Origin: Eledone cirrhosa
Lineage: Eukaryota
Length of the DNA stretch: 64,000 bases
NCBI GenBank assembly: GCA_964016885.1
Contig: OZ024743.1
Span: 64,542,001 to 64,606,000, forward strand
Direction of reading: 5' to 3'
Shown: positions 1 through 53,857 of the stretch, piece by piece
Numbering within the stretch: the first letter of the stretch is position 1
How the letters are laid out: each line of letters opens with the position of its first letter
The notes under the pieces: model-generated
What the model was told of the DNA's origin: nothing
Databases searched by the model: none
Seen by the model: only the letters and a program-made list of their open reading frames with translations
Position numbers and translations under genes: made by a program

Positions 1-1259
1 ACCATTGAGGTGTTCTCTGAAGGCCTCAGACCTTTTCAAATGTTTATATGTAAGGTATGATATAATATACATGTGAACCATTGAGGTGTGCTATGGGAGA
101 CTTATAATGTTTTCAAATATGTATATTTAAGACATCCTACAATCCGTAGCCCAGAATTTTCAAACGGTTGAGACACCCTATGTAATGTAGACATAGATAT
201 GTTATGTACCTTAAAGAAGGACAGGGTGGTCATGGGTGGAATACTTTTGATCATAGATTTACTCAATCAAGACCAATATGGGACTAAACAACATACACAC
301 ATAAACACACACACAAACATACACAAACTCCCACTCCCACATAAACACACTCTTACACACACTCTAACACACACACACACTCTCACACGCATTCACACAT
401 ACACTCTCATACACACACTCTCACACACACACACGTACACACTCAAACACATACACACCTAAACACATACATACATACCCACATACACATATACATATAC
501 ACACAAATATATACATACACACAAAAATACACACATACATACACACACATACGTACAAACACGCTAACGCTAGATCTTTCTCGAAACCAAAAGAAATGTC
601 AGATTTTTTCCAAGATGAAATCAATTCCATATCAATGAATAAATAAATATTTTATCAATTAATTCATTTATTTATTTATTCATTTATTTATTTATTTTAA
701 TTATTTTAGTTCCCTATATTTACCACATGTTTGTAAGCACACAGTAACACATTTATATTACTACATACAGGGGCAGTGGAATTGGGGAGACCAGGAGACC
801 ATATATTTTATCCCTAAACTACCAAAACACACGTCTATTTGTATATGCGCTACAATTTACGTACATGTTGTGTTTATCGCATTTCGAACTGTTTTATGTC
901 TTGGTTGATATTTGATAATAACAGCTAAACTAATCACTACAACTAAAGAAAAGGAGTCGATTGACTTTCGTCAAATCGGACCGAGGAAACAATGTTTCCG
1001 TTGGTCTTTCCAGTTGCTAGTACTATCTATCGGCCGCAACTCAAGGTAGAAGGAGCAATGTGAAATAAAGTATCTTGCTCAAGGACATAACGCATCGCCT
1101 GGTCTAGGAATCAAACTGACAACCTCTCGATTGCGAATCCAGTTCTCTAACCAGTCAGCGGCATGTCTTCACACTACAACTAAATTGACCAAATCCCCCC
1201 CCTCCCCCTCCCCATCCAATTTAGAAATGCTTCGTCCGCCCCTAACATGGATGTAAGCA

Positions 1260-1517
1260 CACAGCGACGCATCTATATTCCCACAGCGGCCCATGTACCG
1301 TAGAATCCAGCGCAGCACACCGAAGAAGACAAGGGTGAAACAAATCGAGGAGGACCTAAATTCATAGTGCATCGACCTCGACCATGCGGAGGTCAGTGCC
1401 AGGGATTGGGAGAAGAAGAAGAAGAAGAAGAAGAAGAAGAAGAAGAAGAAGAAGAAGAAGAAGAAGAAGAAGAAGAAGAAGAAGAAGAAGAAGAAGAAGA
1501 AGAAGAAGAAGAAGAAG
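1260..1517 (+). mobile_element. Probable RTE LINE extreme 3' end with (GAA)n tail
   Basis: PKKTRVKQIEEDL..ARDW-like coding remnant directly before (GAA)n. Confidence 0.5.
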
Positions 1518-2085
1518 ACATCTATATGTTACCACATGTATGTAAGCATACAGCACATATCTGTACGTTACTACATGTATGTAAGAATAAGGTAACACAT
1601 TTATGTTAACACATGTATGTAAAGATACAGTAGTACATTTATATCTATCTGTCTATATATATAAGTGTATGTGTATCCTTATATATATATATATATAGCG
1701 AAGGAAGTGTGGTAAGGAACCAGGTTGACCATAACGCACCAGAGTACTCGATACTTAGAGTAGTAGAGTGGGTAATAGGAAAAGAGTCAGATCTAGCTGT
1801 CGAAACAGCCGGAGCTCAGCCGTCGGGGTCCTGACTCTTTTCCTATATATATATATATATATATATATGGTACATCTATATGTAGCTGTCTATATATGTA
1901 TGTAATGTATCCTATATATATGTATATGGTACATCTATATGTACCCGTCTATATATGTCTATATATGTGCGTATGTGTATCCTATATATATGTATATGGT
2001 ACATCTATATGTACCCGTCTATATATGTCTATATATGTGCGTATGTGTATCCTATGTATGTATATGGTAAATCTATATGTATCTG

Positions 2086-2149
<64 letters not shown>

Positions 2150-2762
2150 AGTATGTATGTATGCATGTCTACATTAACAGAAGAGAAGGCCGCTATATAT
2201 TTGCAAGATCAATGGATAGTGATAGGAAATAAATACAGATTACCTAGGGATATATCAAACACGCTTAGTTTAGCTTTAAACCGACAACGTTCTCATAATC
2301 CAGACATTTGTTCCTTTACCATATACAGCAGCAGCAGCAGCAGCAGCAGCACCATCACCATCACTATCATCATCATCACCACCATCACCATCACCATCAC
2401 CATCACCACCACCATCATGACCACCATCATGACCACCATCACCATCACCACCACCGTCACCACCACCACCATCACCACCACCATCACCACCATCACCACC
2501 ACCACCGTCACCACCACCGTCACCACCACCACCACCACCATCACCACCACCACCACCATCACCACCATCACCATCACCATCACCACCACCACCACCGTCA
2601 CCACCACCGTCACCACCACCACCACCATCACCACCACCATCACCACCATCACCACCACCACCATCACCCACCATCAGCACCACCATCAGCACCACCACCA
2701 CCATCACCACCACCATCACCACCATCACCACCATCACCACCACCATCATCATCATCAACACT

Positions 2763-2793
<31 letters not shown>

Positions 2794-3008
2794 CCATTAG
2801 TATTACTATTATAACCGCAGCCATCCTGATTCCTCCAATTGTATAGGGAAGGACTGTCAAGTTACAATCTTCATGGCTATTGATTCTACAAAGCAGACAC
2901 AAGTTATCTTGAACCAAAGACAAAAGACTCGACTTCTGTTTATTAAAATATCTATCAGCCTTTTCTTTGTTTTATTTCGTTGCTGTTCCTTCATTTGTTA
3001 TTGTTGCA

Positions 3009-4415
3009 GTGGATTGGCAGTATCGGTGGAGGGTCGGACGCCATGCTTTCCATCATGGACTTACGTCCCTTTGCGGACTGAGTTCAAATCGCGCCGAGGC
3101 GTAACTTTGCCTTTCATCCTTACGGGGTCGATAAAGTAAAGTACCAGTAATGCACTGGGTAATTACTGGCCTTGTGCCAAAAGTAGAAACAATTATTGTT
3201 GTTATTAATATTATTATGGTGGATTGGCAGAATTGATAGAGCGTCGGACGCCATGCTTTGCAGCATAGAGTTACGGCCCTTTACAACCTGACTTCAAATG
3301 CTGCCGAGGTTAACTTTGCCTTTCATCCTTACGGGGTCGATAAAATAAAGTACCAGTCACGCACTGGGGTCGATTTAATCGACTTTCCCCTCATCCCAAA
3401 AATTGCTGGCCTTGTGCCTATATAAGAAACTATTATTATGGTGGATTGGCAGTATTGGTAGAGCGTCAGACAACATGCTCTGTGGCATAGAGTTACGGCG
3501 CTTTACGCTCTGAGTTCAAATTCTGCCGAGATTAGCTTTGCCTTTCATCCTTAGGGGGGCGATAAAACAAAGTACCAGAAACGTACTGGGGTCGATTTAA
3601 TCGACTTTCCTCTTTCTTTCAAATTGCTGTCCTTGTGCCGAGACAATTATTAAAATGTTTTTCAGCATTTATTCCGGATCTTTATGTCGTGTGTTCAAAT
3701 CCCCCTGAAGCCAGCTTTACCACTCATCCACCCGAAGGTGAATTGAATAAAGTACCAGTCATGCACTGAGGTCGATGTAATCGACTTTCGCCTCCCCACA
3801 AATTATTGGCCTTTTGCCTAAATTAGAAATATGAGGGCAGTGGAATGGCAGAATCAGTAGAGCGTCAAAAACAATGTCTCGTGTTTCTGACCTTTACGTT
3901 CTGAGTTCAAATCTCGGCGAGGTCAATCTTGCCTTCCATCTTTCGGTGAAATAAAATACCAATAAAATACTGGAATCGATGTAATCGAGGCTCCCTTGTC
4001 CCCACAATACTGGCTTTGTGTCTAAATTAAAACTCCTTGATATAAGTTCAAATTTCGGTGAGGTCAACTCGTCTTTTCATCCTCTTCGGATCAATCAAAT
4101 TTAGTACCAGTCACGTACTGAGGTCGATATAATTGACTTTCCTCTTCCGCCAAGCTTGAACTTGGTTTAATAAAACAAAACATTTAAGTTTGTGTCAATG
4201 ATTTCTACTTTAAGCAGAAGGACAGTCATTTTAGGAAAAGGGAAAAAGTCGATAACATCGACCTCAGTACATGACTGGTACTTTATTTTATCTCCCACAC
4301 CCCCAAGAAAGGATAAAAAGGAAAGTTATCCTCGGCGGGATTTGAACTGGGAATGGAGAAATTGGTAACTAAATAGAGAAAAGTATTTTGATCGACGCTC
4401 TACTGATTATGCCGA
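3009..4415 (+). mobile_element. Cluster of about 6 head-to-tail OK-type tRNA SINEs plus one inverted copy (4200-4415)
   Basis: Repeated A-box TGGCAG, B-box GAGTTCAAATC and body GCCGAGGTTAACTTTGCCTTTCATCC..GTCGATAAA..AGTACCAG..GCTGGCCTTGTGCC. Confidence 0.85.
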
Positions 4416-10625: not shown

Positions 10626-10690
10626 TATTTTGTCTGATGAAGGCATACCATAATTTAACATGGTATCCTTGAAATATGTATAATAAAATA
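10626..10690 (+). ncRNA. Type I hammerhead ribozyme
   Basis: TATTTTGT-CTGATGA-[AGGCATACCA/TGGTATCCTT]-GAAA-TATGTA-TA^-ATAAAATA. Confidence 0.7.
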
Positions 10691-11862: not shown

Positions 11863-12029
11863 GTTACAACAGTGACATATACAGGTACTTCAGGTTCGTT
11901 GGGTTATGCACCCCGTTTCATGAGTTGGGGTTCATAACCCAACGAAACTTAAGTACCTGTAAATGTCACTGTTGTAACTAATTTTACTTAACTCGTCCTA
12001 GGAATTGAGTGCTCTTGGATATTACCCTT

Positions 12030-12320: not shown

Positions 12321-12363
12321 ACGTTGCTGATGATAGCTAATAAGCTTGAAACTAGTACAGCGT
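12321..12363 (+). ncRNA. Minimal type I hammerhead ribozyme
   Basis: ACGTTG-CTGATGA-T AGCT AATA AGCT T-GAAA-CTAG-TA^-CAGCGT; palindromic stem III ACTAGT. Confidence 0.85.
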
Positions 12364-12626
12364 TCCTTTGTCAGTGTTGAACAAATGAGCAGCGATGGTT
12401 GCTAGCCACTGTACGGCTTAATTCGGGATGTTTGTTTACAAACACACCGAGCATTATAATAAATGTTCGGTGAATCCATACGTACATATATATGTGTGCA
12501 TGTATGTATATATATAGATACATACTACTGTACGTCTGTATACATATATGTATGTACGTGTACATACTTATATTTAAGTAACAGCCGTACTAAGAGTGAG
12601 AAATGAAATTTCGTTTCATTTTTTCC

Positions 12627-12691
<65 letters not shown>

Positions 12692-12846
12692 TTGGTGTTC
12701 TGAAATAGCGATATATATATGAATGTATATATAGTGTATTTGGTAATACACTGTATGCTTAATTAAAAGCATTTTGAAGACCTTACGCTATCGTTTTAAA
12801 GTAGTGACTATCTCACTTACTTCTTTTTTCAACAAACAAAGGGAGA

Positions 12847-12894
12847 TAAGCTGACAGATCTCTGTTTCATACTGTTGGTATTCCTCAGAGCTTA
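12847..12894 (-). ncRNA. Minimal type I hammerhead ribozyme
   Basis: TAAGCT-CTGAGGA-ATAC CAACA GTAT-GAAA-CAG AGAT CTG-TC^-AGCTTA; all three stems perfect, GUC site. Confidence 0.9.
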
Positions 12895-13306
12895 GCACTC
12901 CCCTTGTCTGTTGAAATTATGAATGTTGGATTCTTATAGAATTCCAGTAATAATCAGGAACTGATTATACAGAGCGGTTGCCGGCCCAACAAAAATTGAA
13001 AATTAGAAATGGTGCTCTGAAATGGCGATGTATACATGAATATATATATAGTGTATTTGGTAATACACTGTATGCTTAATTAAAAGCATTTTGAAGACCT
13101 TACGCTATTGTTTTAAAGTAGTGACTATGTGTGCTTACACACTTTTACAAATTTTTCCCTGTGATTGTTTCATATGTTTATTTTAGATATATATATATGT
13201 CAATCAATTTCTAGTTGATGTAAAATGCTCGGATCTATTCATTGGAATCTTGGAGCATATTCTACAGTGGATATGGCGCATGTCTCTCTGACATGACACC
13301 CTTAAT

Positions 13307-53536: not shown

Positions 53537-53579
53537 ACGTTGCTGACGATAGCTAATAAGCTTGAAACTAGTACAGCGT
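53537..53579 (+). ncRNA. Minimal type I hammerhead (same family as 12321)
   Basis: Identical to 12321-12363 except at N7 (CTGACGA). Confidence 0.85.
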
Positions 53580-53857
53580 TCCTTTGTCAGTGTTGAACAA
53601 ATGAGCAACGATGGTTGCTAGACACTGTACGGCTTAATTCGGGTTGTTTGTTTACAAACACACCGAGCATTATAATAAATGTTCGGTGAATCCATACGTA
53701 CATATATATATGTGTGCATGTATGTATATATATATATACATACTACTGTACGTCTGTATACATATATGTATGTACGTATACATACTTATATTTAAGTAAC
53801 AGCCGTACTAAGAGTGAGAAATGAAATTTCGTTTCATTTTTTCCGTTTATATATATG

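What the first reader, a model, noticed from the sequence alone, without database searches (positions are those of the whole stretch)
12685..13128. 317-nt monomer with one perfect HHR and 127-bp terminal redundancy
Direct repeats 12685-12811 and 13002-13128 flank a perfect GUC hammerhead, giving about 1.4 copies of a 317-nt unit. This is what reverse transcription around a circular or tandem RNA would leave, and it is within the retrozyme size range.
Basis: partly seen in the sequence, partly recalled or inferred. Interest (0 to 1): 0.72.

Follow-up and report, generated by a model that had tools for sequence, protein, structure and literature searches.

The report
Hammerhead retrozyme with Penelope-type ends
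This is one copy of an abundant 317-base jumping repeat in an animal genome that carries a fold predicted to be a self-cutting hammerhead RNA and was likely pasted in by the enzyme of Penelope-like retrotransposons; it is a known kind of element, and its repeated ends do not by themselves show a circular RNA.

Summary
In detail: two 127-bp direct repeats (120/127 identical, 317 apart) enclose one canonical type I hammerhead on the minus strand. The locus is one 5'-truncated copy of an abundant non-coding family (1,000-3,300 first-look candidates per probe); a sister family is about 82% identical with compensatory changes in the ribozyme. Copies are not random circular permutations. Their 3' ends sit at two sites 26 nt apart, before (TA)n, in 84 of 91 insertions. 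5' ends vary, and 62 of 91 carry an inverted second arm. In 37 of 41 classifiable two-arm insertions, each arm uses a different site. This is the known Penelope-like 'tail' and internal-initiation signature, and the genome holds coding Neptune-type elements, although no partner with shared sequence was found. 5' ends pile up near the cleavage site and again one unit upstream, which fits partly cut linear multimer templates somewhat better than a monomer circle. Circles, cleavage and expression are untested. Verdict: new member of the non-LTR retrozyme / non-autonomous PLE class, with informative end statistics.

The parts
12685..13128 (-). Whole inserted copy: 444 nt = 1.40 units of the 317-nt repeat. 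Numbering u1 = first base after the predicted cleavage site (12852); the copy runs u42 -> u317 -> u168. No inverted second arm at this locus.
12685..12811 (-). 3' copy of the 127-nt redundancy (u42-u168)
13002..13128 (-). 5' copy of the redundancy (u42-u168 of the previous unit); ends at a 5' truncation point specific to this copy
12847..12894 (-). Canonical type I hammerhead (helix I 6 bp, CUGAGGA, helix II 4 bp, GAAA, helix III 3-4 bp, GUC; predicted cut between 12853 and 12852)
12827..12916 (-). Long stem extending helix I (12916-12898 with 12845-12827); would hold the two ends of a cut monomer together; 5 of its 19 pairs change on both sides in the sister family
12685..12710 (-). 26-nt 'tail' (u143-u168) between the two family-wide 3' end sites, u142 (12711) and u168 (12685); inferred two internal reverse-transcription start sites
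   Evidence: interpretation from PMC11167929
12630..12686 (.). (TA)28 microsatellite abutting the element's 3' end; inferred insertion target; no target-site duplication can be read
13129..13290 (.). Unrelated abundant repeat joined to the element's 5' end; a loose-end consensus of that repeat shares about 4 nt with the element end (possible microhomology join); right edge approximate
   Evidence: tables 2 and 7

Best explanation
The locus is a 5'-truncated, 1.4-unit copy of an abundant non-coding 317-nt hammerhead repeat whose copies end at two fixed sites before (TA)n, and it was likely inserted by the RT-endonuclease of a Neptune-type Penelope-like element acting in trans on a longer-than-unit RNA. 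Shown: unit, fold, copy abundance, two fixed 3' sites, variable 5' ends, inverted second arms with one site per arm, 5' pile-ups near the cleavage site, coding Neptune-type elements in the genome. Inferred: tandem copies are transcribed into multimeric RNA; some hammerheads cut and others do not (or are re-ligated); a PLE protein dimer nicks both strands of a (TA)n tract; each subunit starts reverse transcription inside the RNA, one at u142 and one at u168; cDNA runs 5'-ward through an intact hammerhead junction into the previous unit until it is truncated or meets a cut 5' end; the two cDNAs are joined head to head, or one is joined to flanking DNA as here. The 127-bp redundancy is the part of the previous unit copied before truncation. 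Monomer circles probably form as well, as in other animal retrozymes, but they are not needed to explain this insertion.
For: 3' ends at u~142 or u~168-173 in 84 of 91 family-A insertions, followed by an AT run in 72 of those 84; 62 of 91 have an inverted arm; 37 of 41 classifiable two-arm insertions pair one u142 end with one u168 end (p = 5e-8 against 50:50). These match PLE features: partial tandems, inverted 5'-truncated copy, 30-40-bp tail on one end, (TA)n bias (PMC8557442 passages; PMC3846280 passages), and in vitro internal initiation at two adjacent sites by a predicted dimer that cuts both strands (PMC11167929). Genome: 10,596 first-look GIY-YIG candidates, 150 of 150 scored over the cut-off; ORFs of 938, 844 and 1096 aa with RT (Pfam RVT_1), CxxxxCxxC linker and C-terminal GIY-YIG. 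Probes independent of upstream extent: 18 of 69 arms end within -5..+22 of the first cleavage site; 8 of the 11 that get that far end at the second (p 0.005 and 1e-5 against constant hazard, windows chosen after seeing the data). The sister family, mostly GUU with weaker helices II and III but a more GC-rich long stem, has only 2 of 30 at the first site (Fisher p = 0.03), which favours cutting over stalling at the stem. Junction reads GUC/AGC exactly in 108 of 144 crossings, none with an indel. Covariation 9 of 33 pairs. Longest ATG ORF in the circular unit 28 aa.
Against: No coding PLE with sequence shared with the unit was found: 0 of 56 GIY-YIG loci, apart from a family-B copy inserted in the (TA)n at the end of one element. 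That sample is a tiny part of the PLE content and the partner clade is inferred only from target and end anatomy. Exact ends at u1 are few (about 3-4 of 69); most pile-up ends lie 4-22 nt inside, and three independent copies end 4 nt upstream of the cut site, which cleavage alone does not explain and stalling at the ribozyme might. One of the 8 second-site arms (L260) has an odd 3' end; without it 7 of 10. Samples are the best-scoring 40 per search, not random copies; 21 two-arm insertions could not be classified. The covariation is one split between two subfamilies, not many independent events (shuffle control 20/500 for number of pairs). In PMC11167929 the hammerhead was not needed for insertion in vitro and no RNA-seq reads ended at its site.
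Confidence: 0.72

Rival explanations
1. The template is a 317-nt monomer circle: hammerhead-cut monomers are ligated, the PLE RT starts at u142 or u168 and runs more than once round, giving the terminal redundancy.
For: The long stem would hold the cut ends together. Junctions are seamless. 31 of 69 unbiased arms exceed one unit. The two repeats of one insertion are closer (6.1%) than repeats of different insertions (7.9%), and share locus-private variants 6 of 110 times against a null mean of 0.4%. No consistent 5'-repeat versus 3'-repeat differences except u3 and u140 (u140 merges with the AT target in short-ended copies). Circles are shown for coral, mussel and axolotl retrozymes (PMC7229834, parts 2-4 read), and this route was proposed for PLEs (PMC4209133).
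Against: No drop in arm length at one turn (317 nt), but a sharp drop at the second cleavage site (8 of 11), which a monomer circle does not predict because that site would already be in an RNA:DNA hybrid (inference). The shared private variants come from only 3 of 59 loci and could reflect local duplication or subfamily structure. Genomic multimers that can supply linear templates exist.
Confidence: 0.2
2. The unit is only the pseudo-LTR of a longer coding PLE, and these are its 5'-truncated copies.
For: All end features are those of PLEs. Retrozyme families resemble pLTRs in Xenopus (bioRxiv 10.64898/2026.07.22.740005, parts 1-3 read).
Against: Going upstream, copies run into another unit, an inverted arm or unrelated flank, never into a shared ORF: tblastn with 7 PLE proteins over 150 loci plus the window gave only scattered hits not joined consistently to the unit. 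Units repeat head to tail up to 7.35 times with no ORF. The coding elements sampled carry a different, minimal hammerhead variant.
Confidence: 0.06
3. The redundancy arose by local DNA-level tandem duplication of a one-unit SINE-like copy, with no longer-than-unit RNA.
For: The 7.35-unit array lacks the usual ends and its units differ (83-91% to the query), as expected for local amplification.
Against: Exact 317 periodicity recurs at dozens of independent loci with different 5' ends and the same 3' ends.
Confidence: 0.02

Closest known systems
Metazoan non-LTR retrozymes (Cervera and de la Pena 2020, PMC7229834; Li, Clavereau, Pollet 2026, bioRxiv 10.64898/2026.07.22.740005)
   Same: Non-coding 150-450-bp repeat (here 317) with canonical type I hammerhead, low GC, no LTR/PBS/PPT, self-paired predicted circle that leaves the hammerhead free to fold, head-to-tail multimers, thousands of copies, co-occurrence with PLEs.
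   Different: Here most copies are dispersed 0.4-2-unit truncations with fixed 3' ends in (TA)n and inverted second arms rather than long arrays (one 7.35-mer found). Expression, cleavage and circles are not shown. The parts of those papers that I read give no copy-end statistics.
EN+ Penelope-like elements, Neptune clade (Craig et al. 2021, PMC8557442; Arkhipova et al. 2013, PMC3846280)
   Same: Partial tandems, inverted 5'-truncated arm, tail on one end only (26 nt here, 30-40 described), (TA)n targeting, type I hammerhead.
   Different: No ORF; no sequence shared with the sampled coding elements; canonical rather than minimal hammerhead.
Poseidon_Ac in vitro system (Frangieh et al. 2024, PMC11167929)
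   Same: Two adjacent internal start sites bounding the tail, downstream of the hammerhead; AT-rich target; uncleaved RNA can be the template.
   Different: That study saw no strand difference in start-site use and no in vivo ends at the hammerhead; here the two arms nearly always use different sites and 5' ends cluster near cleavage sites.

Membership tests
Non-LTR retrozyme | Type I hammerhead with conserved core and helices I-III | tested here: met
   (sequence, fold, covariation); Rfam gave no hit
Non-LTR retrozyme | Repeat unit of about 150-450 bp occurring head to tail | tested here: met
   317 nt; 2.3-2.8-unit copies and a 7.35-unit array; several copies with two intact cores
Non-LTR retrozyme | Non-coding, no LTR-type internal region | tested here: met
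   longest ATG ORF 28 aa in the circular unit; no internal region between repeats; PBS/PPT not searched separately
Non-LTR retrozyme | Two consecutive complete hammerheads at this locus ('active' by the 2026 preprint's criterion) | tested here: not met
   the window copy has one hammerhead; other family copies have 2-4 intact cores
Non-LTR retrozyme | Self-cleavage of the RNA | not testable with these tools
   only indirect: 5'-end pile-ups near cleavage sites
Non-LTR retrozyme | Expressed as linear and circular monomer RNA | not testable with these tools
   needs RNA of this species; see Tried and rejected
Non-autonomous PLE-mobilised element | Two alternative 3' ends (tail), 5' truncation, inverted arm | tested here: met
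   84 of 91, 62 of 91, 37 of 41
Non-autonomous PLE-mobilised element | Insertion at (TA)n / AT-rich DNA | tested here: met
   72 of 84 ends followed by an AT run; 76 of 99 arms in unbiased sets
Non-autonomous PLE-mobilised element | Identified autonomous partner sharing terminal sequence | tested here: inconclusive
   0 of 56 coding loci share the unit, out of 10,596 GIY-YIG candidates
Autonomous EN+ PLE (unit = its pLTR) | RT plus GIY-YIG ORF between the repeats or upstream of the unit | tested here: not met
Plant-type LTR retrozyme | Type III hammerhead in LTRs with 4-bp TSD | tested here: not met
   type I topology; no TSD readable; repeats are partial units

The most novel reading that the evidence does not exclude
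The family's copy ends are a genomic record of the retrozyme life cycle: a Penelope-type protein dimer starts at two different internal sites of the retrozyme RNA in a coordinated way, one per target strand, and the hammerhead cuts in vivo and sets the 5' limit of the template once per unit. That would be direct genomic evidence that animal retrozymes are mobilised by PLE machinery from partly cut multimers, and would give the PLE hammerhead a visible in vivo role.
Probability: 0.4. Interest if true: 0.55.

Novelty: new member of a known kind. Interest (0 to 1): 0.33.

Why it matters
The element class is known and common in animals, so the locus itself is ordinary. The value lies in the family: how retrozymes are mobilised and what hammerheads do in Penelope-like elements are stated as open in the papers read (PMC7229834, PMC8557442, PMC11167929, the 2026 preprint). 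This family supplies a 317-nt substrate with mapped start sites (u142, u168), a natural weaker-ribozyme sister family, and resident long PLE ORFs, so trans-mobilisation and circle-versus-multimer templating can be tested in the existing in vitro PLE assay.

Tried and rejected
Rfam: no hammerhead family hit in the window or in 12680-13200 at E up to 10; only microsatellite-driven miRNA noise. RNA: no RNA holder listed, so nothing on expression; two contig runs of unrecorded kind were laid and show the family, with joints that cannot separate repeat collapse from circles. The L092 hammerhead first looked like the pLTR of a coding PLE; rejected, because that element ends about 250 nt earlier in 39 of 39 other scored copies and the hammerhead belongs to an inserted two-armed sister-family copy. 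Classical twin priming on one RNA with abutting arms: rejected, since both arms end at the family's 3' sites and arm 5' ends do not abut the other arm's start. A master with two different units: no consistent position-specific differences. Whether both arms come from one RNA: divergence 5.2% versus 6.8% and 6 of 68 private variants shared (4 of 57 loci), suggestive only. L201's 1212-nt alignment probably bridges an inverted arm and is not counted as 3.8 units. My note that the 7.35-unit array lies between two copies of another hammerhead family was wrong; both lie on its right. Earlier findings by sequence and by words: none. Literature searches found no description of this family or of retrozyme copy-end statistics; the supplement of PMC7229834 could not be read, the preprint's supplements were not seen, and Repbase/Dfam were not available, so prior annotation cannot be excluded.

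Full report
Observation. The hammerhead is on the minus strand and is a canonical type I motif: 6-bp helix I, CUGAGGA at 12888-12882, 4-bp helix II, GAAA, a 3-4-bp helix III with a near-palindromic loop, and GUC with the predicted cut after 12853. Helix I continues into a 19-bp stem. The circular unit folds at -81.2 kcal/mol, z = -6.9 against 60 shuffles (antisense -4.8), with the three hammerhead helices present at probabilities of about 0.4-0.7. Rfam does not recognise it. I number the unit from the first base after the cut (u1 = 12852); the window copy runs u42 to u317 to u168 and abuts (TA)28.

Family. The genome is 3.0 Gb and unnamed. Probes gave 2,899, 1,779, 3,348, 1,150 and 1,037 first-look candidates, of which 40 were scored each time; these are not copy numbers, but they point to thousands of copies, 92-96% identical for the best. 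A sister family B of about 315 nt and about 82% identity has 2,649 candidates. On 10 A and 10 B copies, 93.6% of cells pair and 9 of 33 pairs change on both sides: 5 in the long stem, 2 in helix I, 2 in helix II; slid controls give 1-2. This is one split between two subfamilies, so it shows a conserved fold but is not 9 independent lineages.

Ends. After removing duplicates, 91 family-A insertions were mapped. 3' ends fall near u142 in 35 and near u168-173 in 49; 7 lie elsewhere. An AT run follows in 72 of the 84. 62 insertions have an inverted arm joined at the 5' side. Of these, 41 have both arms ending at one of the two sites, and 37 of the 41 use one site each (p = 5e-8); 21 could not be classified. 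5' ends are spread round the unit. So copies are not circular permutations; they are 5' truncations from two fixed starts. Family B behaves the same. This is the published anatomy of EN+ Penelope-like elements: partial tandems, an inverted truncated copy, a 30-40-bp tail at one end and (TA)n bias (PMC8557442, passages; PMC3846280, passages). PMC11167929 (parts 1-3 of 4 read) shows in vitro that a PLE protein, predicted to be a dimer, cuts and extends both strands of AT-rich DNA and starts reverse transcription at two adjacent internal sites that bound the tail, using mainly uncleaved RNA.

Partner. The genome has 10,596 GIY-YIG candidates. [quoted passage not shown] None of 56 such loci shares sequence with the unit by BLAST or profile search, except a family-B copy inserted at the end of one element. 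No ORF is joined consistently to the unit in 150 family loci. The unit is therefore non-autonomous as far as sampled, and its partner is not identified.

Circle or multimer. Longer-than-unit templates are certain in effect: 31 of 69 arms found with probes that do not select for upstream length exceed 317 nt, copies reach 2.3-2.8 units, one array has 7.35, and the junction is seamless (108 of 144 exact, none with an indel). Repeats within an insertion are more alike than between insertions (6.1% versus 7.9%) and share private variants above the null, but in only 3 of 59 loci; this fits a circle or a homogeneous multimer. The 5' ends are more telling. 18 of 69 stop within -5..+22 of the first cleavage site, 40 stop over the next 290 nt with no break at one turn, and 8 of the remaining 11 stop at the second site (7 of 10 without the odd arm L260) (windows chosen after seeing the data). 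A monomer circle offers no second folded or cut site, so a linear multimer with one cut and one intact hammerhead fits better (inference). Family B, with a probably weaker ribozyme but a stronger stem, has 2 of 30 at the first site (p = 0.03), which favours cutting over stalling. Against that, few ends are exactly at u1 and three lie 4 nt upstream. Circles may still exist, as shown for coral, mussel and axolotl retrozymes (PMC7229834, parts 2-4 of 6 read) and proposed for PLEs (PMC4209133, parts 1-2 of 4 read).

Comparison and novelty. The family meets the sequence-level definition of a metazoan non-LTR retrozyme; cleavage and circular RNA, also defining, could not be tested, and this locus alone has one hammerhead. 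A 2026 preprint (10.64898/2026.07.22.740005, parts 1-3 of 5 read) already argues that such elements are non-autonomous PLE derivatives. Six searches found no account of this family or of such end statistics, but supplements and repeat databases were not seen. An earlier unchecked note (e1-8670900) reports other (TA)n-inserted hammerhead families in this genome, of a different, rearranged type; I did not test it.

Verdict. Real feature, new member of a known kind. Interest 0.33: the class is common, but the one-site-per-arm pairing and the periodic 5' pile-ups make PLE mobilisation of a retrozyme, and the role of its hammerhead, directly testable.

Noticed in passing
window 12321-12366 (+) and 53537-53582 (+): A second, unrelated family with a minimal type I hammerhead (6-bp helix I, palindromic 1-bp helix III, GUA site), 300 nt left of the finding; the copy at 53543 has a changed core base. 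The same family lies as an inverted pair right of the array in L121.
   Followed up: partly
window 57478 (+) and 56907 (-): Inverted pair of a third hammerhead family with a longer helix III and GUA site, again a two-armed layout; similar sequence flanks L004.
   Followed up: no
window 10634-10682 (+): A fourth hammerhead-like motif with long helix II and AT-rich helix I; a related motif occurs in L133 and L122.
   Followed up: no
L121 (G000:C4:169092471-169094798): 7.35-unit tandem array of the 317-nt unit, units 83-91% identical to the query, 4-5 recognisable cores, ends at u265 and u22, not AT-flanked; possible source of multimer RNA.
   Followed up: partly
L148-L177, L208-L237: Sister family B: about 314-315 nt, about 82% identical, 2,649 first-look candidates, same two 3' sites, mostly GUU triplet and a U-U pair at the base of helix II; its 5' ends cluster 29-67 nt upstream of the cleavage site (10 of 30).
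   Followed up: yes
L111 (G000:C1:145870500-145876500): 938-aa Neptune-type PLE ORF flanked by two copies, 4,979 nt apart, of a minimal hammerhead with the U3-A8 core variant described in PMC4209133; looks like a full-length element.
   Followed up: partly
window 11866-11975: Near-perfect 110-nt hairpin between (TA)n tracts, likely another two-armed or MITE-like insertion.
   Followed up: no
run X4 (organism B): Contigs of a second coded organism match the unit, one over 158 nt with 3 differences, at low summed depth; relative or contamination not resolved.
   Followed up: no
G000:C2:338330431-338463490: Four family hits spaced about 44 kb apart, probably a segmental tandem duplication.
   Followed up: no
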